From Alphaproteobacteria bacterium (GTDB lineage: Bacteria > Pseudomonadota > Alphaproteobacteria > CADEGL01), in contig JAPLOM010000026.1 of NCBI GenBank assembly GCA_026400755.1, positions 928 to 64,927 on the forward strand: DNA of 64,000 bases. The letters run 5' to 3'. The notes below the pieces were generated by a model. It was given only the letters and a program-made list of their open reading frames with translations. It had not been told where the DNA came from and ran no database searches. The translations under genes and the position numbers were made by a program. Shown here in pieces: positions 32,861 through 62,367 of the stretch (its first letter is position 1; each line of letters begins with the position of its first letter).

Positions 32861-33172
32861 TCAGAGCACCCAGAAATCCGCGAACGTCTCCCGCCCGTGC
32901 GCGTGCGGCCTTGGGTCGGCGGCCCGCGCGCGCCGCGCCATCTCCCGCGCGTGGAACAGGACCTTGCGCGCTTCCTTCAGCGCCTCGCGGCCGGCTTTCG
33001 TCAGCGTCACGGTCCGGCCCTTGCGGTCGAACAGCTCGACCCCCAGGCGCGTTTCCAGCTTGCGGATCGAAACGGACAAGGGCGGCTGGGCCATATTGAG
33101 TTTTTCGGCGGCCCGCCGGAAATGCAGGATTTCGGCCAGGGTCACGAATTGTTCAAGCTGCCGGAGATACAT
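32861..33172 (-). pseudogene. truncated LysR-family regulator (HTH domain only)
   Basis: 103 aa with intact LysR HTH (FRRAAEKLNMAQPPLSVSIRKLE) but no substrate-binding domain; divergent from the luciferase-like gene. Confidence 0.55.
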
Positions 33173-33336
33173 TGATACTCACCAGGTATCGGGCCATAGC
33201 CATTTAATATTAGAAGCCGCCCGGCCCGTCCATTAGCGTATCGCCGCCTTGATCCCCCCTTTAACGTCCGGACTTGGCTGCGGGGCCGCTTTCGAGCCCC
33301 GGCCTTCGGACCCTTTTGCGCCTGGAGCACCCCCCG

Positions 33337-36214: not shown

Positions 36215-36433
36215 AATCGAATATCGGCGCGCCCGCAAAGACTTACGGAACGATGTTCAAAACCTGCTGAAAATCTGGGTTTTTCGAAAAGGAAAACGTT
36301 CCGCCTCGCCTACGACTTTTTGCCCCCGTTTCGCCATCGTCCGGTCCTTCCTCCGCCCCCGTTGTTTGGGAACCTTCACAGGTACTGAGCCGTTTCTTCT
36401 CCGGGTAACACACGGCTCACAGGGAGAACCCAC

Positions 36434-36661
36434 ATGAACACACTCACCAAGTCTTTGCTGTTCGGAGCCAGCTTGCTCACCGTTTCCGGCGCGGCGTTCG
36501 CGGCCGACCAGAAGCCGCAGCGCACCTGGGTGCAGCCGCCGGCGTGGGTCATGCTGCTGGACCGCGGCGACCAGACGACCACCATCAGCCTCGACCGCAT
36601 GGCCTATGTGGAACAGGCGATCAATCCCGACCGCGAAGCCAACGTCGCGGAAGCGAAGTAG
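36434..36661 (+). CDS. small secreted protein (signal peptide, 75 aa)
   Basis: GGGAGA RBS; N-terminal signal peptide LLFGASLLTVSGAAFAADQ. Confidence 0.45.
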   Translation: MNTLTKSLLFGASLLTVSGAAFAADQKPQRTWVQPPAWVMLLDRGDQTTTISLDRMAYVEQAINPDREANVAEAK

Positions 36662-36681
36662 CGCGGTCATATCCACACCCG

Positions 36682-38103
36682 CTAGGTCCGCTTTTTCACG
36701 AATTCTTCCAGGATCGCCTTCCGGTCCGCGTCCAGATCGGGCGCGGGCCGGACTGTTTTCGGCTACGCCAAACCCACCACCTTGATCGGATTGCCCGCCA
36801 CCGGAATCGAGCCCGCCATGGGATCGTCCACGGTCACGATCATGTTCCGTGCGGCGACTTGCGGCTCCTTCATCATCGCGGCCACGTCGTTGACCGGCCC
36901 GCACGGCACCCCCGCCTCGGTCAGCACGGCAATCCAGTGCGCGGCCGTGGCGTCCGCCACCGCGGATTCTATCTCGGCCTCCAGCGCGTCCACGTTCCGG
37001 TGGCGCAGGGCGTTGGTGAGAAAGCGCGGATCCTGGGCCCACTCCGGACGGCCCAGCGCCTGGGCCATGCGCGCGAACAGCCGGTCATTGGCCGCGGCGA
37101 TCACCATCGGGCGGTCGGACGCCCGATAGGTCTGGAACGGCGCGATCGAGCCGTGGCGCGTGCCGTGGGGAACGGGCGCGTGGCCCGATTGGTGGCAGCG
37201 CACGATGGCATCTTCCAGAAGTGCCACCTGGCAATCCAGCATGGCGATGTCGAGCTTGCAGCCCTGGCCCGATTTTTCGCGGCGGTAAAGCGCCGCGTTC
37301 AGGCCGACGGCCAGATACAGGCCCGCGGCCAGGTCGCCGATCGACGCGCCGACGCGCACGGGCGGGCCGCCCTCGGGGCCGGTCAGGCTCATGATCCCGC
37401 CCATGCCCTGCACCACCATGTCGTAGGCCGCGCGCGCGTGGAACGAGGCCGGCGCGATGTCGCCATAGCCCGTCGTGGTCAGGGTGGTGAAGCTGAAATA
37501 AACGAATTCGTAATAGTGACCCTTGCGCTCGCCCACGATCGCGACGAAAGCGTCAGGCGTCGTCACGTCGATGAAGGCGTAGAACGCCGCCCATAGGATG
37601 CCGATCAGAAGATAGCCGCACACGGCGGCCGCGATCCGGTCCTCCGTCACGGGCCCGCGATGCAGCACATAGGCCAGCACGTTGCCGACCGTGAACACCA
37701 GCGCCAGCAGCACGCCGCACCCGGAGAGATAAAACAGCGATTCGTCACCCGAGGCAAAATAGAGGATCAGCAGCAGATAGGCCGGCGCCGCGAGCGCCAC
37801 GGCGATAACGCGCAGGAGCTTGGTGCGCGTCGCCGAGAAGACGCCCAGGACCAGGACCGCCAGGATGAAGCCGCTGAGCGCTTCCCGGCCGATGGCGGAG
37901 CCGACGAAGAAGGGGTAGCCCAGCAGGAATGCGACCAGCAGAATCAGAAGATAGTGATAGGGCGTGTGCGTGATATGGCTTTTGTGAAGCGCGCGAAGCC
38001 GTTTCATGGCCAGTGCCCCTTCGTCCCTGCCCCCAGCGACGCCTAACACGGTACGGCGCGCGCCCGCGGTCAGTTTAACGCGGAAACCGGACCGCGAGGC
38101 CAT
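36682..38103 (-). pseudogene. chimeric/disrupted ORF: K+-channel pore domain (truncated after TTGYGD) fused to the C-terminal half of a family-III CoA-transferase (CaiB/BaiF), which also carries an in-frame TAG
   Basis: Residues ~35-230 are 5 TM helices plus pore helix and selectivity filter (FSFTTLTTTGYGDIAP) with no inner helix after the filter. Residues ~235-446 match the CoA-transferase III C-terminal half (GIMSLTGPEGGPPVRVGASIGDLAAGLY...) with the N-terminal Rossmann half absent. TAG at 36763-36765 is followed in-frame by the conserved family tail (PKTVRPAPDLDADRKAILEEF) up to a second TAG at 36682. Confidence 0.55.
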
Positions 38104-51155: not shown

Positions 51156-51797
51156 ATGGCCGAGCGAACGATCGAAATTGCAAGGACCGCGCTCGAGGCC
51201 GCCTGGGCGCGGGCGCGGGACAATCCCTCCGCCGAAACCGGGGTGGCCTATGCCGATGCCCATGCCGCCTGGACCGACCTTGCCCGCCGCCGCGTGGGCC
51301 GCCCGGCCAGCAGCGACGGGGCGGCGCTGACCGGGCCGGAGCGGGCCCAGGCCCTGCGCGGACGCCAACAGGATTCGGCCGGCAAATGGACAAGGGTGGC
51401 GCCTGTCATCCAGAGCCTGCGCGGCGCGGTTCGGGCCGGCGATCTGAACGCCGTCTCCGCCGCCGTCCGCGCCTTGGTCAACGAGACTTCCGTGACCCTA
51501 GACCGGATCACCGTGATCCACGCCCACCCCAGCTCCGACCAGACCGTCCTGGAGGGGTGGGACGGCGATCGGCCCGTCCTGGGGTTTGTCGCGCTCGCGA
51601 CGCTGGCCGGCTATTTCGGACGCGCGGACCTCACCCCAGCCCAAGCCAACCTGCTTGTCGGCCAAGACTTGGCGCCCTTCGCGCGGGCGATGGAGGCAAG
51701 GCTGGAGCGAGGGGATTATCGCCCCTATGCCCGGGGCGGCGTCACCGTGCCGTGCATAGACATCCTGCTCAGTGATTTCGACAGAGGACCGCGCTAA
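51156..51797 (+). CDS. hypothetical protein (213 aa), no recognisable domain
   Basis: GC3-rich ORF immediately after an AT-rich hairpin-containing segment; lies between that segment and the Rep-like gene. Confidence 0.45.
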   Translation: MAERTIEIARTALEAAWARARDNPSAETGVAYADAHAAWTDLARRRVGRPASSDGAALTGPERAQALRGRQQDSAGKWTRVAPVIQSLRGAVRAGDLNAVSAAVRALVNETSVTLDRITVIHAHPSSDQTVLEGWDGDRPVLGFVALATLAGYFGRADLTPAQANLLVGQDLAPFARAMEARLERGDYRPYARGGVTVPCIDILLSDFDRGPR

Positions 51798-52441
51798 GTC
51801 CGCAGACTGGTATGAGTTGGATTTGGAAAAGCCCGGAATTTTCTCGGCGTAGATTGAATTTTTCCTTCGTCCTGAAGGCGTCGGCGAACGCTTGGCCCAA
51901 GCGATTTGCTTGTACCCGCGCGCTTCCCGAGAACAATTCCTTGCGGCTCATGCCGAATGCGGAAAAATCGCGCGTATACCGGATCAATTCCCTTGATCAA
52001 GTATTTGGCTAGGCCCTGCGGCCTGGGCACGTCCCGAACATGAACTGCGCTGTTGCAAGTGACCGTAGGCACAACCGCGGCCAGCCATTTCGGAAGAAGC
52101 GCTCGAAACGAAGCGATACGTTCATCCGGAATATGAACAACCCAGTGGACATGAGGGTACTCACCTCGGCTCTCAATGCTCCACACGTAGGCAGGTGGGG
52201 TACGGAGGCCAGTGGCTTTGCGTCGTAGCCACGGGACAAAGTGATTGTCGCGGAGGAGTTCAAACTGCTCACTGACGAGGCCCGATGGGCACGTCGTATG
52301 GCCAAAGTTCAAAGTGACGAATTGATTCAGAGGAAGCCCAATTGCGTCGGCCACGCTGACGGCCCTGACTATATTGGAGGCCGGCTTGCGGTTGATGAAG
52401 CTGCTGCGACGCCTACTAGATCGTGTTTCTGTATCGACCAT
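51794..52441 (-). CDS. rolling-circle replication initiator-like protein (HUH endonuclease motifs)
   Basis: Motif I FVTLNF, motif II HVHWVVH (HUH), motif III AKYLIKG (YxxK) in canonical order and spacing; gene GC ~52% versus ~68% background. Confidence 0.5.
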   Translation of the reverse strand: MVDTETRSSRRRSSFINRKPASNIVRAVSVADAIGLPLNQFVTLNFGHTTCPSGLVSEQFELLRDNHFVPWLRRKATGLRTPPAYVWSIESRGEYPHVHWVVHIPDERIASFRALLPKWLAAVVPTVTCNSAVHVRDVPRPQGLAKYLIKGIDPVYARFFRIRHEPQGIVLGKRAGTSKSLGPSVRRRLQDEGKIQSTPRKFRAFPNPTHTSLRT

Positions 52442-52526
52442 CTATACTCTTAGGGTGTCTGACCCCTCCTCCGCCGCGCTTCCCCCCCCCCGTGATTTTC
52501 TGATCGCCGACGCGGTTGGCCCCGCT

Positions 52527-53378
52527 TCACGCACCCAGCGGTCTTGAGCCCTTGATCGTGACCCGCATCATCTGGCGGTCCTGCACGCCATAGTCGTTAG
52601 CTGCGTAGTGAATCGTGCAGCGATTGTCCCAGAAGGCCACATCGCCCTCGGTCCAGCGCCAGCGGACCTGGAAATTCGCCTGCTCGCAGTGGTCGCACAG
52701 CATGTTGATCAGGTGCCGGCTCTCGATCTCCGATACACCGAGGACGCGCGCCGCGTAGGCGCGGCTGACGAACAACGCGCGCCGGCCGGTCTCCGGATGG
52801 CGGATGACCATCGGATGCACGCAGCCCGGCTTCTCGACCTTCATTTTCTTGAGACGTTCCGGCCCGTCCTTCGTGGCCGGATCCAGAAGGAAGGGCGTGA
52901 AGGTGGGCACGCCGTCGTGCAGCACCTGAAGCCCTTCGATCATCGCCTTCATGCGCTCGGATAGGCTTTCGTAAGCCGCGTACATGGAAACCCAGAGCGT
53001 GTCGCCGCCGATCTGCGGCAGCATCATCGGGTGAAGCAAGGAACCCAGCGGCGGCGTCTCATCGAACGAAACGTCCGAGTGCCAGATTTCGTTTTAGTTT
53101 TTGCCACCCTTGCTCGCGCGCGCAGTGACCAGCATCACCTTCGTGTTGTCGGGGTGCTTATCAAGGCCGCTGTGGGGCGAATCGATCTCGCCGAACTTCT
53201 CCGCCAAGGCAGCGAAGGCGTCCGCGCTCAGCTTCTGCCCGGGGAAGAAGACGACCTGGTGCTCCAGGAACGCCTTGCGGATGGACGTCACCTCGAACGG
53301 GCTGACGTTGTTCAGGTTGATGCCGGAGATTTCAGCGCCCAGATAGCCGGTCAATCGCCGAACCGTCATCGCGTTCAT
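52527..53378 (-). pseudogene. TauD/TfdA-family alpha-ketoglutarate-dependent dioxygenase interrupted by an in-frame TAA
   Basis: Two collinear in-frame ORFs (53378..53097 and 53039..52527) separated by TAA at 53094-53096. Read-through gives a contiguous TauD-like sequence (...SKGGKN*NEIWHSDVSFDETPPLGSLLHP...). Confidence 0.65.
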
Positions 53379-53404
53379 GGCGTCACCTCCATCGTTCTAC
53401 GAGA

Positions 53405-54860
53405 TTAGGCGTCGGGCTTGACCCCGTGCAGCCGGTCGATGTGGGCCAGGTAATCGCGCACTTCCTTGTCCTGGCGCGTCTGGTCCCAGCCCAGGATCGG
53501 CGCCACCTCTTGCGCCGCGCGGCGGGCGACTTCGCGGCCCATGGTCTGCGTCCAGCCCGCACCGACCCGGCGGAACATCAGATCCACGAGCGTCATGGGC
53601 TGCTCGTTCTCCGCCGCCCTGTGCAGGTGGGAGATGCGCGCGTCCGGCCAGTGGTTGAGGAGGGCCGGCGAATCGTCCTTCGGATACGGCTTGGCCGCGT
53701 AGGAGATCTGCTGCGGCGCGCCGGACGGCTTGAACTTCTTCTGCACGGCGGTCGCCAGCTGCACGCCCGCCAAACGATGCGACTGGATGGGCGAGGAGGT
53801 CATGGCATACATGCCGGGCAGGCCGTCGGCCTCCAGATCGTGCAGCGTGTGGCCGCGCTTGCCCATGGGCAGGTCGGGGTCGTAGGTCAGTGGGCGCACG
53901 CCGGCCCAGGAGAACAGCACGTCCTTGCGCGTGAGGCCGAGGCCGGGAAGCAGCGCATTGGTTTCGTGGATCAGGTGCTCCTTCTCCTCCTCCGTCGCGC
54001 TGATGTCGTCGATATCGCCCTCGTACTTCGTGTCCGTGGGGCCCGTGTAGTGCATGCCGCGCCAGGGGATGACGTAGTGCGGCTCGCGGTCGGACGTGTG
54101 GGCGATGACGCCCATGTTTTCGCACTCGGGCGGCAGGCGGAACATGATGTGGGACGTTGGGATCGAAGGCGTCGGCCAGATCGATGCGCCAATCGTCGCC
54201 CTCGCGGACCATTTTGGTCGCGGGCGTGTAGTTGCGCGCGACCGCCCCCATGCGCTCGGCGTCGAGCAGCGTGTCCATGGCGATACGCTCGGGCCACTCG
54301 TAGCGATACTCCCGGTAGCTGAACACGGACGTCAGCTTCTCCGGATCGCGCAGCCATTTGAGCAACGGCATCTGCAGCGCTTCCTTGGCGGGGATGCGCT
54401 TGGGATCGAGCGGCACGTCGCCGGGGCCCAGCGCCGCCAGAAGCTTCATGCCCAAAGTGACCTGCCAGGGCTTGTAGATGCTGTCGGTATAGACCGGGAA
54501 GCAGAAGGAAAAGGCGCGCACCCGCTCGGGCATCGTGGTGCTGATCTGACTGCGCACGTTCATGGCGTCGCGCGCGCGGCCCAGGTTGCGGATCGTGTCC
54601 TTGGGCTTGGTGAAATAGTCGAACATGCTGGGCTTGCGGTAGCCCAGGCCCTCGCCCGGCTCGATGAAGCGCAGGCCGCAATGAAGCAGGCGGCTGGAAC
54701 GGCTGGACGAACCGGCGGCGAAGTCGCCCTTGTCCACCACCAGCACCTTGTAGCCCGCGGCGGCCAGATGATGCGCGCCGCTGGACCCGTTCACGCCCGC
54801 GCCCACGACGATCGCGTCGAACTTGCGCCCGTCGAGTTCCTTCAGAGCCATCCGTTTCAT
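53405..54860 (-). pseudogene. GlpD-like FAD-dependent oxidoreductase, disrupted paralog (internal ~130-bp deletion plus frameshift)
   Basis: N-terminal 270 aa and C-terminal 245 aa are each collinear with the intact paralog at 55928..57499 but lie in different frames. The ~45 residues KAKIVLNMAGTWIDRVNKLAGEGAKRKICGTKGVHFAVK of the paralog are missing at the junction near 54140-54150. Confidence 0.6.
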
Positions 54861-54982
54861 CGATTTTCCCCCAACCCCTGTCTTTCGGCGAGAACAACCT
54901 TCTCGCCATTCTATTTGACGGACCATCTAAACGGCCCACATTCTGGCCGTCCAATAATCTAACAAATGCGAGTCATAACCAA

Positions 54983-55921
54983 ATGGGTATGGCCAGCCTG
55001 CGCCGGCGCCATATGCTGGTTTTCCAGACCGTGATGCGGTCCCGGTCGGTCACCGAGGCCGCGCAGCAATTGGGCATTTCCCAACCCGCCACGTCCCGCG
55101 CGCTGTTCGAGCTGGAGGAGCAGGTCGGCTTTCCCCTCTTCAACCGCTCCAGCGGACGTACCACCCCGACCGTCGAGGCGCAGAACCTTCTGCCGGAGAT
55201 CGACGAGCTGCTTCTCCACCAGGACCTGGTCGAGGGGCGTATCAAGGCCGTCCGCGCGCGCAACGAAGGAACCCTGACCATCGCGGCACCGCCGGGCCTG
55301 GTGACGTCTTTTCTGTCCCGCGCCGTGGCGCGCTAAGCGCAACGAAAGCCGAAAGTGAGCATCCGGCTCGAGTCGCACTCCATTACCCGGATCGCCGAAT
55401 CGGTCATCCGCCACGAGGTGGATTTCGGATTCGTCTATTCGCCCACCGATCTTTCGAAGGTCCGCTCGATTCCCATCTGCCGTTCGGAGATCGTCTGCGT
55501 GTTCCCGCCAGATCACCGGCTTGCGCAGAAACGCGTCGTCACGGCGGATGACTTGGTCGGCGAGCGGATTGTAACGCTCACTGTCAACGCGATGACGGGC
55601 ATGCTGATCCGCGAAGCCCTGCGCCCCGAGCAGATGGACGCCATCATCGAATCCAACCTGTCGCTGACGGCGCTGACCATGGTGTCCGAAGGCGGAGTCG
55701 TAGGGTTGGTGGATTCGGCATCTCTCGAAGGCCCATTCAGCGGGCTGGAGATACGGCGCTTCAAACCCAGCATCGACTTCCGCATCTTCGCGATCGGCTC
55801 GCGCTACCGCCCCCCGTCGCGAACGGCCAATGACTTCTTCACCGACCTGAACAAAGTCTTGAAGGAGCTGGCGCGCGCCGTGCCGTCGGTCCATCTGACG
55901 GGAGCGGCCCTGCGGTTCTAG
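54983..55921 (+). pseudogene. LysR-family regulator interrupted by an in-frame TAA
   Basis: HTH half (54983..55333) and substrate-binding half (55355..55921) are in the same frame, separated by TAA at 55334-55336 (...SRAVAR*AQRKPKVSIRLESH...); divergent from the disrupted oxidoreductase. Confidence 0.6.
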
Positions 55922-55927
55922 AGCGCG

Positions 55928-57499
55928 TTACTGCTTCGCGTCCGAATGGATCAGCCCATCTGGCCCGCGCAGATGCTGGTGCGCGATATAGGCCACGTAA
56001 TCCTTGGCTTCCTTGTCGGCCCGCGCCTCGTCCCAACCCATCTCGGGCGCGATCGCACGCGCGGCTTTCAGCGCCGCTTCGCCCGCCATCGTCTTGGTCC
56101 AATGCGCGCCCACGCGGCGGATCGCATCGACCAGCGTCGCCGGATACTCGGTTGCGGCGACATGCTTCAGGTCCGCAACCTTGGCGTCGGTCCAATGGTC
56201 GAGCAGCGGCGGCGAGTTCTGGTTCTCCGGAAACTTGCGCGCGGAATAGTCGATCTTCTGCGCCGAACCCGACGGCTGGATTTTCCCTTGCACAGCCGCG
56301 CACATCTCTTGGCCCGCCGAACGGTGAGTCATGATCGGCCCCGCCGTCATGGCCAGAACACCGGGCATGCCTTCGGACGCCAAATCGTGCACCAGGCGGT
56401 CGCGCGAGCCCTTCGGATAGCGCGAGTCGTAAGTCAAAGGCCGCACGCCGGCCCATGAAAACAGAATGTCCGAGCGCTTCAGGTTGATCGAGGGGAACAG
56501 GTGGTTGGCCTCGGCCAACAGCCAGTCGATCTCGTTGTCCGTCGCGCGGATGTCGTCGATGTCGCCTTCGAACAACGTCTCGGTCGGGCCGAAGTAGTGC
56601 AGGTCGCGCCAAGGGAAACAGTAGAGATGCTCGCCCTCGCGGTGATGGCCCATGACGCCGCGATACTGGCATTCGGGCGGCAGCTTGACGGCGAAGTGAA
56701 CGCCCTTGGTGCCGCAGATCTTCCGCTTGGCTCCTTCGCCGGCCAGCTTGTTGACGCGGTCGATCCAGGTACCCGCCATGTTGAGCACGATTTTGGCTTT
56801 CACCGTCGCTTCTGCGCCCGGCTGCAGCGAATCGCGCATGGTGACCTGCCAGCCATCGCCGTCGCGGCGCATGCCGGCGACCGGCGTGTAGTTGCGCACG
56901 ACAGCGCCCATGCGCTCGGCGTCCAGCACCGTGTCCATGGCCACGCGCTCGGGCCAATCAAAGTGGTATTCGCGGAACGTGGCCGCGCCCAGCATCTTGT
57001 CCTGGTCGCGCATCCAGGACAGGAGCGGCATCGTCTTGATCTCGCTCGGGCGAGCGATCTTGAAATCGATCGGCACGTCGCCCGGCCCCAGGAGCTCCAG
57101 CGTCTTGAACGCCAGCTTCACCTGCCAGGGCTTGTAGTAGTCGGTGTTGTAGATCGGGAAGGCGAAGTGGAGTTGGCGCAGATGCTCGGACGTCGTGTTG
57201 ATGAACTGGCTGCGCGTCTTCATGGCCTGGCGCGCCATCTTGAGCGAGGCGAACAAGAGATCGGGCTTGGCCATGAACTGCCACATGGACATGCCGCGAT
57301 CGAGATAGCGGATGCCGCAGGAAAGCATGCGGCTGGAGCGGCTGGAGGCGCCGGTGCAGAAATCATTCTTCTCGACCAAAAGAACGGAGTAGCCGGCCGC
57401 GGCCAGATGCTGGGCCGACGAAATGCCGTTGAGACCAGCGCCGACGACAGCCACGTCGAACTGCTTGCCGTCGAGCGCCCCGAGCGATTGGCGTGCCAT
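55928..57499 (-). CDS. GlpD-like FAD-dependent oxidoreductase (intact paralog)
   Basis: DVAVVGAGLNGISSAQHLAAAGYSVLLVEK FAD motif; 523 aa from ATG 57499 with GGAGGG RBS. The ORF track opens far upstream within antisense Arg/Pro-rich junk. Confidence 0.8.
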   Translation of the reverse strand: MARQSLGALDGKQFDVAVVGAGLNGISSAQHLAAAGYSVLLVEKNDFCTGASSRSSRMLSCGIRYLDRGMSMWQFMAKPDLLFASLKMARQAMKTRSQFINTTSEHLRQLHFAFPIYNTDYYKPWQVKLAFKTLELLGPGDVPIDFKIARPSEIKTMPLLSWMRDQDKMLGAATFREYHFDWPERVAMDTVLDAERMGAVVRNYTPVAGMRRDGDGWQVTMRDSLQPGAEATVKAKIVLNMAGTWIDRVNKLAGEGAKRKICGTKGVHFAVKLPPECQYRGVMGHHREGEHLYCFPWRDLHYFGPTETLFEGDIDDIRATDNEIDWLLAEANHLFPSINLKRSDILFSWAGVRPLTYDSRYPKGSRDRLVHDLASEGMPGVLAMTAGPIMTHRSAGQEMCAAVQGKIQPSGSAQKIDYSARKFPENQNSPPLLDHWTDAKVADLKHVAATEYPATLVDAIRRVGAHWTKTMAGEAALKAARAIAPEMGWDEARADKEAKDYVAYIAHQHLRGPDGLIHSDAKQ

Positions 57500-57636
57500 G
57501 AAACCCTCCCCCGTGCTTGGCAAAGTCCGAAGAGCATATCGGCCGCGCATCCGGGATGCCATGCGCGGGCCTGAATAGCGATTGCTCTGCGATAGCCAGG
57601 GACGGCATCCTCCCCGGCCGGAGCGAAGGAGAGGCG

Positions 57637-58761
57637 ATGGACGGGGAGGATTCCACGATCCCACGGGACGTGGACGTGGCCGTGGTCGGCGGCGGGGTGG
57701 TCGGCATGTCGGCCGCGCTGTTCCTGGCCCGGGCGGGGCGCTCGGTCGCCGTCTTCGACCGCACCGAACCGTGGAGCGATGCCTCGGGCTCGAACGCCGG
57801 CACCCTGTCGATCCAGGCCATGCGCGTCGAGGTGCTGGCCATGGCGCGGCTGGGCATCGCGCTGTGGCGCCGGTTCCAGGAAGAAGACGGCATGGATGTC
57901 GGCTTCGCGCGGCTGGGCGGCTTCCTGGTCGCGACCGGCGACACCCATATCGCCCATCTGCGCGATTATGCCGCCCAGCAGGCGCTGTCGGGACTGGAAC
58001 TGGAGTGGCTCGAAGCCAACCGGATGCGCGACCGCGCGCCATGGCTGGGACGCGCGGTGCGCGCCGCCACCTTCTGCGAGGAGGATTCTCACGCCAGCCC
58101 CCTGCTGGCTGGCAACGCCGTGATCGCCGCTGCGCGGCGCGCGGGCGCCCATGTGCTGTCACAGACGCCGGTCGAATCCATCGCGCGCGAGGGCGCGGGC
58201 TATGCGGTGACCACGCGCTTCGGCGTCACGCGCTGCCGCGCCGTGGTGGTGACAGCGGGGCCATGGTCAGGTGAGATCGCGCGCATGCTGGGCGTCGCTT
58301 TACCGCTTTACGTCGACACCAACATGCTGACCATCACCGAGCCGGGACCGAAGGTGTTCGACCGCGTGGTCAGCCACGTGGCCGGCATTCTGACCCTCAA
58401 GCAATACGAGAACGGCACCTGCATGATCGGCGGCGGCTGGCAGGGGCGCGGCGTGTTCACAACCGGCCAGCGCAAGACCGATTACGACCGGCTGCGGCAG
58501 AACTGGGCGACCGCCACGTCCGTGGTGCCGGGCTTGGCGAATTTGCGCGCGGTGCGAAGCTGGGCCGGGTTCCAGGCCGTGACGCCGGACGCCCTGCCCG
58601 TGATCGGCCGCCTGCCCGGCCACGAGCAGGCCTATATCGCGGCGGGCGCGCGCGGCGGCTTCCACATGGGGCCGGCGCAAGCCCTGGCCCTGTCCGAGAT
58701 GATCCAGGGCCGCGCGCCACCTTTGGACCTGACGCGCTTCGATCCTGGCCGCTTCGCATGA
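57637..58761 (+). CDS. FAD-dependent oxidoreductase (DAO / sarcosine oxidase beta-like)
   Basis: DVAVVGGGVVGMSAALFLARAG motif; GGAGAGG RBS before ATG 57637. Confidence 0.8.
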   Translation: MDGEDSTIPRDVDVAVVGGGVVGMSAALFLARAGRSVAVFDRTEPWSDASGSNAGTLSIQAMRVEVLAMARLGIALWRRFQEEDGMDVGFARLGGFLVATGDTHIAHLRDYAAQQALSGLELEWLEANRMRDRAPWLGRAVRAATFCEEDSHASPLLAGNAVIAAARRAGAHVLSQTPVESIAREGAGYAVTTRFGVTRCRAVVVTAGPWSGEIARMLGVALPLYVDTNMLTITEPGPKVFDRVVSHVAGILTLKQYENGTCMIGGGWQGRGVFTTGQRKTDYDRLRQNWATATSVVPGLANLRAVRSWAGFQAVTPDALPVIGRLPGHEQAYIAAGARGGFHMGPAQALALSEMIQGRAPPLDLTRFDPGRFA

Positions 58762-59240: not shown

Positions 59241-60185
59241 ATGATCGAGCGGCGGAAGATCAAGCGCATCGCGCTGGTCGGCACGGGCACCATCGGCGGG
59301 TCGTTCTGCGCGCATTTCCTCGCGCATGGCTATCAGGTGACGGCGACCGACCCCGCGCCGGACGGCGAGGCCAAACTGCGCGCCTTCGTTGCGCGCGTCT
59401 GGCCGCAACTGCGCGAGATCGGTGCGACCAAACTGGACGCGCCACCGCCCTTCGATTTCGCGCGCGATGTGGGGAGTTGCGTGAAAGATGCAGACTTCGT
59501 GCAGGAGAACGCGCCCGAGATCGAGGCGCTGAAGATCAAGGTGCTAGCCGAGATCGACGCCGCGTTCCCCAAGGAGCGGGTGATCGCCTCCAGCACCTCG
59601 GCATTGGTGATGACGCGGCTGGCCGTCGAATGCGCGCATCCTGAACGGTGCATCCTAGCGCACCCATTCAACCCTCCGCATCTGGTGCCGCTGATGGAAC
59701 TGGCCGGCGGCGAGCGCACCGACCCCGCGGCGATCGACTTGGCCCATGATTTCTATTTGGAAGCCGGGCTGAAGCCGGTGCGGATGAAGCGCGAGATCTA
59801 CGGCCACATCGCCAACCGCCTGCAATACGTGATCTGGAACGAGGCCGTGCAGATGGTGCTGCAGGGCTATTGCACCGCCGCCGACGTGGACGCCGCCATC
59901 ACGGAAGGGCCAGGACGGCGCTGGGCCTTCATCGGGCCGTTCCTGTCCTACATGCTGGCGGGCGGCGAAGGCGGGCTGAAGCGCACCTTCGAAATCTTCG
60001 GCCCGCGCGACACGATGGCGGTCGACCGCGCCTCGCGCATCCGCCTGACGCCAGAGCAGCAGAAAATCCTGATCGATCAGGTCGAGGAAATGCTGAATGG
60101 CCGCACGCCCGCCGACATGGCCCGTGCGCGCGACGCGCGGTTGGTCGAGCTGGCCAAAATCAAGAACGCGTTCGAGAAAGGCTGA
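59241..60185 (+). CDS. 3-hydroxyacyl-CoA dehydrogenase-family NAD-dependent dehydrogenase (L-carnitine dehydrogenase-like)
   Basis: N-terminal GTGTIGGSF Rossmann motif, HPFNPPHLVPLMELAGG; ~315 aa, the length typical of carnitine dehydrogenases without the thioesterase extension. Confidence 0.75.
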   Translation: MIERRKIKRIALVGTGTIGGSFCAHFLAHGYQVTATDPAPDGEAKLRAFVARVWPQLREIGATKLDAPPPFDFARDVGSCVKDADFVQENAPEIEALKIKVLAEIDAAFPKERVIASSTSALVMTRLAVECAHPERCILAHPFNPPHLVPLMELAGGERTDPAAIDLAHDFYLEAGLKPVRMKREIYGHIANRLQYVIWNEAVQMVLQGYCTAADVDAAITEGPGRRWAFIGPFLSYMLAGGEGGLKRTFEIFGPRDTMAVDRASRIRLTPEQQKILIDQVEEMLNGRTPADMARARDARLVELAKIKNAFEKG

Positions 60186-60344
60186 GACGGTGGGTTGGCT
60201 TGCTGGCTGGCTTACGAAAGCTGACTTGCTGGCTGACCCGATTCCGTGTGCGCAGGCGGTACCAGTCCCTGCCCTTCCTTACCTTTCACAAGGCGTGCCA
60301 GACGGAGGCGCCTTTATGTAAATCCGGCAGAAACTCGCGGGTAT

Positions 60345-61340
60345 TTATTCCCCCTTACCCGGCCCCACCTGTAAAGCGCGCGCGAAAATAGCCGGATCGA
60401 CGTTGCCGCCCGAACAGATCACCGCCACGGTCTTGCCGCGCACGTCGAGCTTGCCTGCCAGCAACGCAGCCAGAGCCGCCGCGCCGCCCGGTTCGACGAC
60501 CAGTTTCAAATCCAGGAAAGCGCGCTTCATCGCGGCCAGAACGTCCGGGTCGGAGACGGTAAGCATGCCGTCGACCAGCTTGCGGTTGATCGCGAACGTC
60601 ATGGCAGCGGGGGTGGACACCGTCAGCGCATCGCAGATCGTGGCCGCATCCGCGCCGTTAACGACACGCTGCCCTGCGGAGATGGAGCGCGCGGTGTCGT
60701 CGAAGCCCGCGGGCTCCACGCCATAGACGGCGACCTTCGGCAACAGCGCCTTCGCCGCCATCGCGCAACCGGCGGTCAATCCCCCGCCGCCGCACGGCAC
60801 GACGAGGATATCGGGCACCGCGCCCATGTCCCGGGCCTGCGCGGCCAGCTCCAGCGCCACGGTTCCCTGGCCCGCGATCACATGCGCGTCGTCGCAGGGC
60901 GTCACCGGCGTCAGTCCGCGCTCGGCCGCGAGGCGTGCCGTCACCTCTTCCCAATTTTCGTTCCGGCGGTCGCAGAACAGGACCTCGCCACCCAGCACCC
61001 CGGTGTTGGCGACCTTGATGGCGGCGGCATCCGAATACATGACGATGAGCGATTTCGTACCGACCAGGGTTGCCGCCGCAGCCACGCCTTGCGCATGGTT
61101 GCCCGACGAATAGGCGACAACGCCGCGCGCCCGCTCCTCCGCACTCAACCGTCCGATGCGGTTATAGGCGCCGCGAAACTTGAACGACCCCGTTCGCTGC
61201 AGCACCTCGGCCTTCACGAGCAAGCGGCAGCCGAGCGCTGCACCCATGGCGTGGGCTTCGAGAAGCGGCGTATGGACCGCAACGCCTTTCAAGTATCGGG
61301 CCGCGTCCTGGATGTCGGCAAAGCCCGGCGCGCTGGTCAC
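60345..61340 (-). CDS. PLP-dependent threonine/serine dehydratase-family enzyme
   Basis: SFKFRGA PLP-lysine motif, GGGGL glycine loop. Confidence 0.8.
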   Translation of the reverse strand: MTSAPGFADIQDAARYLKGVAVHTPLLEAHAMGAALGCRLLVKAEVLQRTGSFKFRGAYNRIGRLSAEERARGVVAYSSGNHAQGVAAAATLVGTKSLIVMYSDAAAIKVANTGVLGGEVLFCDRRNENWEEVTARLAAERGLTPVTPCDDAHVIAGQGTVALELAAQARDMGAVPDILVVPCGGGGLTAGCAMAAKALLPKVAVYGVEPAGFDDTARSISAGQRVVNGADAATICDALTVSTPAAMTFAINRKLVDGMLTVSDPDVLAAMKRAFLDLKLVVEPGGAAALAALLAGKLDVRGKTVAVICSGGNVDPAIFARALQVGPGKGE

Positions 61341-61386
61341 GGGGATTTCCTCGAATAGGGTATGTCGCCGAAGACGGCTCCGGGTC

Positions 61387-62367
61387 TCAGCCCCAGAGCG
61401 CCGGTTCGGCCGGATGAACCGTACTGCCCTCGTAGCGCAGACCCGCAGCGCGGTCGCGCGCGAGGAGAAGCGGCCCGTCGAGATCGATCACCGCAACGCC
61501 CTGCGCCACCAACACGGCGGGCGCCATCGACAGCGAGGTCGCGATCATGCAGCCGACCATGACGCCGAAACCCTTTTCCTCGGCCACGCGGCGCAGCTTC
61601 AGCGCCTCAGTCAGGCCGCCGGTCTTGTCCAACTTGATGTTGATCATGTCGTAGCGGCCGACCAGTTGGGCGATCGTCGCAGCATCGTGGCAGGATTCGT
61701 CGGCGCAGACGGGAATCGGCCGCTTGAGCGAGGCCAGCGGCGCGTCCGCCTTGGCCGGCAGCGGCTGCTCGATCATGACGACGCCAAGCTCCGCCAGCGC
61801 AGGCGCGAACCGCTCGAACTGTTCGGCCGTCCAAGCCTCGTTGGCATCGACCACGAGGCGCGACTTCGGCGCGTTGGCACGCACGGCGCGCACGCGGTCC
61901 AGATCGCCCTCGCCCGTCACCTTGAGTTTGAGCAGCGGCCGGTGCGCATTCTCCGCCGCCGCGCGACCCATGGCTTCGGGCGCATCAAGCGACAGGGTAT
62001 AGGCCGTGGTGAGCGGTTTTGGCGCGGAAAGGCCCGCAAGTTCGAACACGCGTTTTCCGGCGCGCTTGGCCTCAAGATCCCAGAAGGCGCAATCGACCGC
62101 GTTGCGCGCGGCGCCGGCCGGCAGCGCCGCCTGCAGAGCCTCGCGGTCGAGCCCACCCGCCAGGCGTGCGCGCAGCGATTCGATGTCGGCGATCACACCT
62201 TCGACCGTCTCGCCATAGCGCGGATAGGGCACGCATTCGCCTCGCCCCACATGGCCGTCGCGCGTCAGCTCGACCACCACCACCTCGGTTGCCGTGCGGC
62301 TGCCGCGCGAAATGGCGAAAGTGCCGCGGATCGGCCAGGATTCGCGGCGGACGTCGAGCCCGGTCAT
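61387..62367 (-). CDS. enolase-superfamily dipeptide epimerase / N-acyl-amino-acid racemase (DgcA-like)
   Basis: MR/MLE family motifs (KLKVTGEGDLDRVRAVR...VDANEAW...IEQP); paired with the DUF1611 gene. Confidence 0.8.
   Translation of the reverse strand: MTGLDVRRESWPIRGTFAISRGSRTATEVVVVELTRDGHVGRGECVPYPRYGETVEGVIADIESLRARLAGGLDREALQAALPAGAARNAVDCAFWDLEAKRAGKRVFELAGLSAPKPLTTAYTLSLDAPEAMGRAAAENAHRPLLKLKVTGEGDLDRVRAVRANAPKSRLVVDANEAWTAEQFERFAPALAELGVVMIEQPLPAKADAPLASLKRPIPVCADESCHDAATIAQLVGRYDMINIKLDKTGGLTEALKLRRVAEEKGFGVMVGCMIATSLSMAPAVLVAQGVAVIDLDGPLLLARDRAAGLRYEGSTVHPAEPALWG

What the first reader, a model, noticed from the sequence alone, without database searches (positions are those of the whole stretch)
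52527..55921. Decaying duplicate of a catabolic module: TauD with in-frame TAA, GlpD-like paralog with deletion and frameshift, LysR with in-frame TAA
Three adjacent genes are each inactivated in a different way. (1) A TauD/TfdA-like gene reads collinearly through TAA at 53094-53096. (2) A 509-codon FAD oxidoreductase lacks ~130 bp present in its intact paralog 1 kb away (55928..57499) and shifts frame there, so its distal half continues in another frame. (3) A LysR regulator has its HTH and effector domains in one frame separated only by TAA at 55334-55336. Together with the TAG in the CoA-transferase relic (36763-36765), that makes three premature stops and a frameshift in ~20 kb, next to the Rep islet. 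This is either relaxed selection on a duplicated accessory island or a patch of sequence errors.
Basis: seen in the sequence. Interest (0 to 1): 0.6.

Follow-up and report, generated by a model that had tools for sequence, protein, structure and literature searches.

The report
Recently broken LysR-controlled catabolic operon
Three neighbouring genes (a regulator and the two enzymes it probably controls) are disrupted in this genome. They are not a decaying duplicate: they belong to a gene cluster conserved in sister species, the regulator's stop codon is present in every assembly of the species found, and the two enzyme lesions occur only in this assembly, so this is ordinary, very recent gene loss.

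Summary
TauD (52527..53378, -) has TAA at codon 95. The GlpD-like FAD oxidoreductase DAO2 (53405..54860, -) lacks 113 bp at 54154|54155, not ~130, and shifts frame. LysR (54983..55921, +) has TAA at codon 118.

The "duplicate" reading is wrong. DAO2 and its neighbour DAO1 are only ~52% identical. Three sister species (88-90% nt identity) carry both, intact, in the same order: DAO3-DAO1-LysR-DAO2-TauD-HpaB.

The LysR stop (TAC/TAT Tyr to TAA) is real. It is in all eight same-species metagenome contigs that cover it. No intact same-species allele exists in the protein collection.

The TauD stop, a neighbouring D97E change, the 113-bp deletion and a further 74-bp spacer deletion are found only in this window. 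Contigs that are otherwise 99.8-100% identical carry TAC and the 113 bp.

dN/dS is 0.05-0.12, so there has been no long-term relaxation and all lesions are recent.

Best reading: the regulator was lost first, then the divergent DAO2-TauD operon began to decay in one strain (about 0.6). An assembly artefact for the private lesions is not excluded (about 0.3). This is ordinary biology of low interest.

The parts
54983..55921 (+). LysR-type regulator pseudogene (HTH_1 + LysR_substrate), split into 117-aa and 188-aa ORFs
   Evidence: The same split is seen in L001 and L012-L017 and in L033.
55334..55336 (+). Premature TAA at codon 118, inside helix alpha-1 of the effector domain. Sister species have TAC or TAT (Tyr).
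   Evidence: All 13 full-length cluster members have Y118 and differ from the window at 14 or more other residues.
54861..54982 (.). Divergent LysR/DAO2 control region. It is highly conserved across species and contains the hairpin 54887-54907 (GGCGAGAA-N5-TTCTCGCC), which shows compensatory changes in sister species.
53405..54860 (-). DAO2, a GlpD-like FAD oxidoreductase pseudogene (DAO + DAO_C). It is intact at 522 aa in same-species contigs and in sister species.
54154..54155 (.). Junction of the 113-bp deletion. It removes codons ~236-273 and shifts the frame. There is no microhomology at the junction. It is private to the window.
   Evidence: The segment is present in L001, L013 and L018, and partly in L014 and L015.
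52527..53378 (-). TauD/TfdA-family Fe(II)/2-oxoglutarate dioxygenase pseudogene. It is intact at 283 aa in L001 and in sister species, and L013 carries TAC at codon 95. The HxD...H...R residues are still present.
53094..53096 (-). Premature TAA at codon 95 (TAC Tyr in all relatives). It is private to the window. Logan contig L018 ends exactly one base before it.
53088..53088 (-). Second private G>T change (on the + strand), 6 bp from the first. GAC>GAA, D97E.
52442..52526 (.). Rep215-TauD spacer. It holds a poly-C(10) tract at 52482-52491, a private SNP at 52474, a further difference at 52500 (compared with one contig only), and a private 74-bp deletion at 52506|52507.
   Evidence: The 74 bp is reconstructed from the 18-bp overlap of L024 and L001, both from the same sample. 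L019 supports the first 23 bp.
55928..57499 (-). DAO1, an intact 523-aa GlpD-like paralog (52% identical to DAO2). It is not the source of a recent duplication.
   Evidence: It shows accelerated amino-acid change on this lineage.
51794..52441 (-). Rep215, an HUH-endonuclease-like gene. The islet 51765..52525 is absent from sister species.

Best explanation
The region is a conserved divergent unit. A LysR-type regulator (+ strand) faces a two-gene operon (- strand) that encodes a GlpD-like FAD oxidoreductase (DAO2) and a TauD-family dioxygenase. The unit sits inside a larger conserved catabolic cluster (HpaB-like, DAO1, DAO3 and others).

Step 1 (shown): in the ancestor of this species a Tyr codon (TAC or TAT in sister species) became TAA at codon 118 of LysR. 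This cuts the protein inside its effector domain. Every available assembly of the species carries this allele.

Step 2 (sequence shown, reality inferred): in the strain of this window only, the operon and its downstream spacer acquired four more lesions within 1.7 kb. These are TauD Tyr95>TAA together with D97E (two G>T changes 6 bp apart), a 113-bp deletion without microhomology that frameshifts DAO2, and a 74-bp spacer deletion.

Inferred mechanism: losing a LysR-type activator silences the divergent operon. The operon then becomes selectively invisible, so null mutations and end-joining-type deletions can persist there while the flanking genes stay identical between strains.

The substrate of the module is unknown. 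The enzymes are family-level TauD and GlpD relatives, not equivalogs.
For: The gene order DAO3-DAO1-LysR-DAO2-TauD-HpaB is intact in L002, L003 and L004 at 88-90% nt identity.

The LysR TAA is in L001/L011-L017 and L033, which come from several studies. No same-species intact allele is among the 17 cluster members. Sister species have TAC or TAT at that codon.

TauD is TAC and the 113 bp is present in contigs 99.5-99.9% identical to the window (L001, L013, L018). L014 and L015, which are 99.9-100% identical, start inside the segment and carry its last 56-74 bp.

L013 shares the window haplotype at all 13 polymorphic DAO2 sites, yet is intact.

Over 24.2 kb covered by 22 same-species contigs, many of them 100% identical, every window-private change seen at depth >=2 lies in 52474-54155. 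There are no homopolymer indels elsewhere, so the assembly is generally accurate.

L018 ends exactly at 53095, one base before the TauD SNP. That is what a de Bruijn graph branch between two alleles in that sample would produce.

dN/dS is 0.05-0.12, and the TauD metal-binding motif and the control region are conserved, so the lesions are recent.

Other relics in the window show that gene decay does occur in this genome. One of them, the HTH-only LysR at 32864..33178, lies within a 100% identical contig.

Deletional decay by end-joining is the known pattern in bacterial pseudogenes (PMC6054270).
Against: The TauD stop and both deletions have no support outside this window. Two JGI metagenome scans and two exact-protein look-ups found nothing.

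Four or five private events in 1.7 kb, against none in more than 20 kb of an otherwise identical clone, is more clustering than a neutral clock predicts. It is borderline even after allowing for selection filtering the flanks.

The private lesions lie at or near places where short-read assemblies of this species break: the poly-C spacer, position 53095, and inside the 113-bp segment.

Nothing here tests whether this LysR activates the divergent operon. DAO2 polymorphism within the species is 12 of 13 synonymous, which may mean the operon is still under selection despite the LysR stop.
Confidence: 0.6

Rival explanations
1. Only the LysR stop is real. The TauD TAA with D97E, the 113-bp deletion and the 74-bp deletion are local assembly or consensus artefacts of this one assembly, for example mis-joined contig ends or a mixed-strain patch.
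For: All of these lesions are unique to the window, while contigs 99.8-100% identical to it are intact. They cluster in 1.7 kb and coincide with contig break points in other assemblies. The deletions have no microhomology. A scaffold of the same species (L033) shows a clear join artefact at this very locus.
Against: The window has no N and no other private change at depth >=2 in the compared sequence outside 52474-54155. De Bruijn assemblers do not normally delete unique sequence without a repeat. The end of L018 exactly at the SNP suggests that both alleles exist in real reads.
Confidence: 0.3
2. One reading: a duplicated accessory catabolic module whose redundant copy decays under long-standing relaxed selection.
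For: There are two GlpD-like genes 1 kb apart, and several relics elsewhere in the window.
Against: The paralogs are only 52% identical, and both are conserved, intact and syntenic in three sister species. TauD and LysR have no second copy in the unit. dN/dS is 0.05-0.12 with no excess of lineage-specific replacements in TauD, DAO2 or LysR.
Confidence: 0.03
3. The private lesion cluster is not neutral. Either it reflects selection for repeated knock-out of an operon that is misregulated after the LysR loss, or it reflects local break-and-repair mutagenesis linked to the adjacent HUH-Rep islet and its poly-C tract.
For: Lesions are clustered from the islet spacer into the operon. Two G>T changes lie 6 bp apart. 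The deletions are of the end-joining type. Rep215 has an HUH-like fold and motifs.
Against: The same islet sits next to intact TauD and DAO2 in other strains. There is no second independent knock-out allele in any sample. The sample of events is very small.
Confidence: 0.07

Closest known systems
Bacterial non-processed pseudogenes formed by nonsense mutation and small deletion (for example the sets analysed in PMC6054270)
   Same: There are in-frame stops and deletions, one of them frameshifting, in and next to genes whose orthologs are intact and syntenic in close relatives. The deletions lack repeats, as expected for end-joining.
   Different: The scale is very small and the events are very recent. 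There is no dN/dS signal, the catalytic motifs are intact, and two of the three gene lesions are seen in a single assembly only.
LysR-type transcriptional regulators with a divergently transcribed target operon (the classic LTTR arrangement; own knowledge)
   Same: The gene has HTH_1 plus LysR_substrate domains. A 122-bp divergent intergenic region is conserved, with dyad elements.
   Different: The effector, the binding site and whether it activates or represses are all untested. The regulator is truncated at residue 117.
E. coli TauD taurine/2-oxoglutarate dioxygenase (NCBIfam NF007104)
   Same: The PF02668 match is full length. The NF007104 score is 268.7 bits. The HxD...H...R residues are present.
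   Different: The score is below the equivalog cut-off of 313 bits, so the substrate need not be taurine. The gene is partnered with a GlpD-like flavoenzyme, not with tauABC.
GlpD aerobic glycerol-3-phosphate dehydrogenase (NF008899 / NF009906)
   Same: It has DAO plus DAO_C domains, and the best NCBIfam hits are GlpD models.
   Different: The scores are 129-145 bits against cut-offs of 352-360. It is not a GlpD equivalog.

Membership tests
Pseudogene (disrupted ortholog) | The reading frame is interrupted relative to intact orthologs at the syntenic position. | tested here: met
   TauD, DAO2 and LysR are intact in L002-L004. TauD and DAO2 are also intact in same-species contigs.
Pseudogene (disrupted ortholog) | The lesion is reproduced in independent sequence data, so it is not an error. 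| tested here: inconclusive
   Met for LysR, with 8 other contigs. Not met for the TauD TAA or the 113-bp deletion. The end of L018 at 53095 is only indirect support.
Pseudogene (disrupted ortholog) | There is a signature of relaxed constraint: raised dN/dS or further lesions. | tested here: not met
   dN/dS is 0.05-0.12. Lineage-specific nonsynonymous/synonymous counts are 5/18 (TauD), 5/34 (DAO2) and 8/36 (LysR), similar to sister lineages. This means the inactivation is recent. It does not mean the genes are functional.
Recent segmental duplicate | The copies share high nucleotide identity, and the second copy is absent from close relatives. | tested here: not met
   DAO1 and DAO2 share 52% amino-acid and 65-68% nucleotide identity. 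Both are present in L002-L004.
TauD/TfdA family (PF02668) | A full-length domain match and the HxD...H iron-binding triad. | tested here: met
   E 3e-62 over positions 2-267 of 267. WHSD and TIHYA are read.
Taurine dioxygenase equivalog (NF007104) | A score at or above the curated cut-off of 313 bits. | tested here: not met
   268.7 bits.
GlpD equivalog (NF008899/NF009906) | A score at or above the curated cut-off of 352-360 bits. | tested here: not met
   129-145 bits for DAO1 and DAO2.
LysR-type regulator | An N-terminal HTH_1 domain plus a C-terminal LysR_substrate domain. | tested here: met
   E 1.8e-18 and 9.4e-33.
LysR-type regulator | It binds the divergent promoter and controls the neighbouring operon. 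| not testable with these tools
   Only the conserved intergenic region and the hairpin were seen.
HUH rolling-circle Rep (for the neighbouring Rep215) | Three motifs (FxTLx, HUH, YxxK) and the HUH nuclease fold. | tested here: inconclusive
   Conserved FVTLNF, HWxxHxP and YxxKG. The AF2 model has pLDDT 88. The AAV Rep nuclease domain is the top hit, but TM is only 0.36-0.44 and E is 1.6e-3. There is no Pfam, PHROG or NCBIfam hit.

The most novel reading that the evidence does not exclude
A decay sequence caught in progress in wild populations. A regulator null allele is found in every assembly of a freshwater-type alphaproteobacterial species. One clone then shows a tight burst of four or five lesions confined to the orphaned operon and the adjoining Rep-islet spacer. 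The burst would reflect either selection to silence a misregulated operon or localized break-repair mutagenesis next to an HUH-Rep element with a poly-C tract.
Probability: 0.1. Interest if true: 0.4.

Novelty: new member of a known kind. Interest (0 to 1): 0.17.

Why it matters
The main value is for annotation. The three genes should be marked as pseudogenes of a conserved LysR-DAO2-TauD unit, not as a duplicated island. The LysR stop should not be 'corrected', because it is the species' allele.

If the private lesions are real, the locus is a small, well-dated example of regulator-first operon decay. Intact and broken alleles exist in otherwise identical clones, which could be used to measure how fast an orphaned operon degrades.

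If the private lesions are artefacts, the case shows that assemblies can produce pseudogene-like patches at strain-variable sites.

Tried and rejected
- A PLSDB megablast of 51700-58200 found no match.
- Recoding or suppression of TAA was rejected. TAA ends several ordinary genes, no tRNA gene is in the window, and Tyr codons make up ~46% of the one-step precursors of TAA, so two Tyr>TAA events are unremarkable.
- An Rfam scan of the whole window found no family.
- Gene conversion from DAO1 was considered as the source of the SNP cluster around the deletion and rejected. The SNPs are 12 of 13 synonymous, derived states are mixed between the two strains, and L013 carries the window haplotype. 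This is ordinary strain polymorphism or recombination.
It was replaced by ortholog-based dN/dS.
- A hairpin-mediated origin for the 113-bp deletion was tested. No structure brings the ends together.
- P0037/L033 looked like a further LysR lesion but is a scaffold with 10 N and odd repeats.
- The source genome was not found. The exact HpaB look-up was empty, and the species is absent from the GTDB representatives (best hit 94% amino-acid identity).

Full report
**Observation**

The three lesions exist at the stated places.

- **TauD.** Window 52527..53378 (-) translates as one collinear TauD-family protein with a single TAA at 53096..53094. With X at the stop it matches PF02668 over 2-267 of 267 positions, E 3e-62.
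- **LysR.** Window 54983..55921 (+) is one frame with TAA at 55334-55336. HTH_1 lies before the stop and LysR_substrate spans it.
- **GlpD-like gene (DAO2).** It is split between two frames. The long '509-codon' ORF is 22 leader codons, 235 genuine codons and about 250 out-of-frame codons that stay open because of the 65% G+C.
- **CoA-transferase relic.** The TAG at 36763-36765 is also real. That ORF is a chimera of a K+-channel-like N-terminus and the C-terminal half of a family III CoA-transferase.
- **TAA as a stop.** TAA is used as a normal terminator by other genes in the window, and no tRNA gene is present.

**What the locus is**

An exact-protein look-up of the intact paralog returned a 5.7-kb metagenome contig (L001) that is 99.5-99.8% identical to window 52504-58058.

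- In L001, TauD is intact at 283 aa, with TAC where the window has TAA and GAC where the window has GAA two codons later.
- In L001, DAO2 is intact at 522 aa. The window lacks exactly 113 bp between 54154 and 54155, with no microhomology at the junction.
- L001 carries the same LysR TAA as the window.

A scan of one genome per species found three sister species (L002, L003, L004). They are alphaproteobacterial MAGs with 88-90% nucleotide identity to the window. All have the gene order DAO3-DAO1-LysR-DAO2-TauD-HpaB, with every gene intact. L003 also carries orf213 between TauD and HpaB.

DAO1 and DAO2 are only about 52% identical in protein, and both are present in all relatives. They are ancient paralogs within a conserved cluster, so nothing here is a recent duplicate. 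Sister species have Tyr at both stop positions: TAC or TAT in LysR, and TAC or TAT in TauD.

**Which lesions are real**

*LysR.* The truncated 117-aa LysR product is encoded on seven contigs from seven samples. The TAA is also in L033. In the 17-member 90% cluster that holds these fragments, all 13 full-length members have Y118 and differ from the window protein at 14 or more other residues. No intact allele of this species is on record. The LysR stop is therefore a real allele carried by every available assembly of the species.

*TauD and DAO2.* The picture is the opposite.

- The 113-bp segment is present in L001, L013 and L018, and partly in L014 and L015.
- TauD is TAC in L001 and L013.
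- L013 shares the window's haplotype at all 13 polymorphic DAO2 sites and still has both genes intact.

*Clustering of private changes.* I piled up 22 same-species contigs over 24.2 kb of the window. Many are 100% identical, for example 6,510 bp of L031. The only window-private changes at depth >=2 are:

- 52474 (A>C);
- 53088 and 53094 (both G>T);
- the 113-bp deletion;
- a second deletion of 74 bp at 52506|52507 in the Rep215-TauD spacer.

All of these lie within 1.7 kb.

*Searches for the private alleles.* Searches of JGI metagenomes for the deletion junction and for the TauD site in either allele, and exact look-ups of the fragment ORFs, found nothing.

*One indirect clue.* Logan contig L018 stops at 53095, one base before the SNP. 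A graph branch between two alleles in that sample would produce this.

**Timing**

Ortholog-based Nei-Gojobori estimates give dN/dS of 0.07-0.12 for TauD, 0.05-0.06 for DAO2 and 0.05-0.07 for LysR. The counts of lineage-specific replacements are no higher than in sister lineages.

The TauD HxD...H...R residues are intact. The 122-bp divergent control region is almost invariant across species, including a hairpin (54887-54907) with compensatory changes.

All lesions are therefore recent. There has been no long period of relaxed selection.

**Mechanism**

*Shown:* LysR is truncated inside helix alpha-1 of its effector domain. The stop is followed by G, so the tetranucleotide is TAAG, and a GTG restart lies 18 nt downstream. 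A functional two-piece regulator is unlikely.

*Inferred:* LysR controls the divergently transcribed DAO2-TauD operon. Its loss left the operon unexpressed and selectively invisible. In one clone, null mutations and end-joining-type deletions then persisted there and in the adjacent spacer, while the flanking genes remained identical between strains. Deletional decay through end-joining is the known pattern for bacterial pseudogenes (PMC6054270).

*Caveats:*

- Four or five private events in 1.7 kb of an otherwise identical clone is more than a neutral clock predicts.
- The lesions coincide with sites where short-read assemblies of this species break.
- A scaffold of the same species (L033) shows an obvious join artefact at this locus.

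I therefore give about 0.6 to real stepwise decay and about 0.3 to the view that only the LysR stop is real and the rest is local misassembly.

**Comparison with known systems**

The enzymes are family-level relatives only. The TauD-like protein scores 268.7 bits against the taurine dioxygenase model, whose cut-off is 313. DAO1 and DAO2 score 129-145 bits against GlpD models with cut-offs of 352-360. The substrate is unknown.

As a phenomenon, this is a standard set of non-processed bacterial pseudogenes in an LTTR-plus-divergent-operon unit.

**Verdict**

- The 'duplicate' interpretation is rejected.
- The 'sequence error' explanation is rejected for LysR and remains open for TauD and DAO2.
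- Interest is low.

Noticed in passing
window 51794..52441 (-), islet 51765..52525: Rep215 belongs to a 25-member family with no Pfam, PHROG or NCBIfam hit. The family conserves FVTLNF, HWxxHxP and YxxKG motifs. The AF2 model (pLDDT 88) best matches the AAV Rep HUH nuclease domain, but weakly (TM 0.36-0.44). A 29%-identical relative lies between an integrase and a DNA invertase on an IMG/VR contig (L034). The islet is absent from sister species but sits in the same place, next to orf213, in 6 other same-species contigs.
   Followed up: partly
window 52482..52491: A poly-C(10) tract lies 41-50 bp upstream of the Rep215 start codon. Every short-read contig of the species breaks within about 60 bp of it, and the tract reads differently in them (C13, or C4TC6). 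It could be a slippage-prone promoter tract or simply a sequencing problem.
   Followed up: no
window 55928..57499 (-): DAO1, the 'intact paralog', has 27 lineage-specific amino-acid replacements against 3-7 in each sister species. Nineteen of them lie in residues 100-256. dN/dS is 0.11-0.16, against 0.04-0.08 in the sisters. This is unexplained. It could be adaptation, relaxation or imported sequence.
   Followed up: partly
window 54887..54907: A perfect 8-bp-stem hairpin (GGCGAGAA-CAACC-TTCTCGCC) sits in the LysR/DAO2 intergenic region. It is kept by compensatory changes in L002 and by a different stem sequence in L003, and it is followed by a strongly conserved 75-bp block.
   Followed up: partly
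window 36257..38103 (-): A chimeric ORF joins a K+-channel-like N-terminus (TTGYGD filter) to the C-terminal half of a family III CoA-transferase. It carries an in-frame TAG at 36765..36763. This is an older deletion-fusion relic.
   Followed up: partly
window 32864..33178 (-): A second LysR relic has only the HTH and part of the linker, followed by a region of lower G+C. It is identical in same-species contig L031.
   Followed up: no
window 53933..54285 and 57023..57516: There are two tracts of dense, almost entirely synonymous polymorphism between strains: 13 SNPs against L001 and 23 differences against L012. The rest of the locus is identical. These look like short recombination tracts.
   Followed up: partly
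window 60178..61388: A threonine-dehydratase / threo-3-hydroxyaspartate ammonia-lyase-like gene (60345..61340, -) is present here and in same-species contigs. The corresponding sequence (window 60178..61388) has no match in sister species L002 and L003.
   Followed up: no
L033 813..983: The scaffold from ERZ19567434 replaces window 55890-55948 with 171 bp of short repeats plus 10 N. This alters the called C-termini of LysR and DAO1. It is judged to be a scaffolding artefact.
   Followed up: yes
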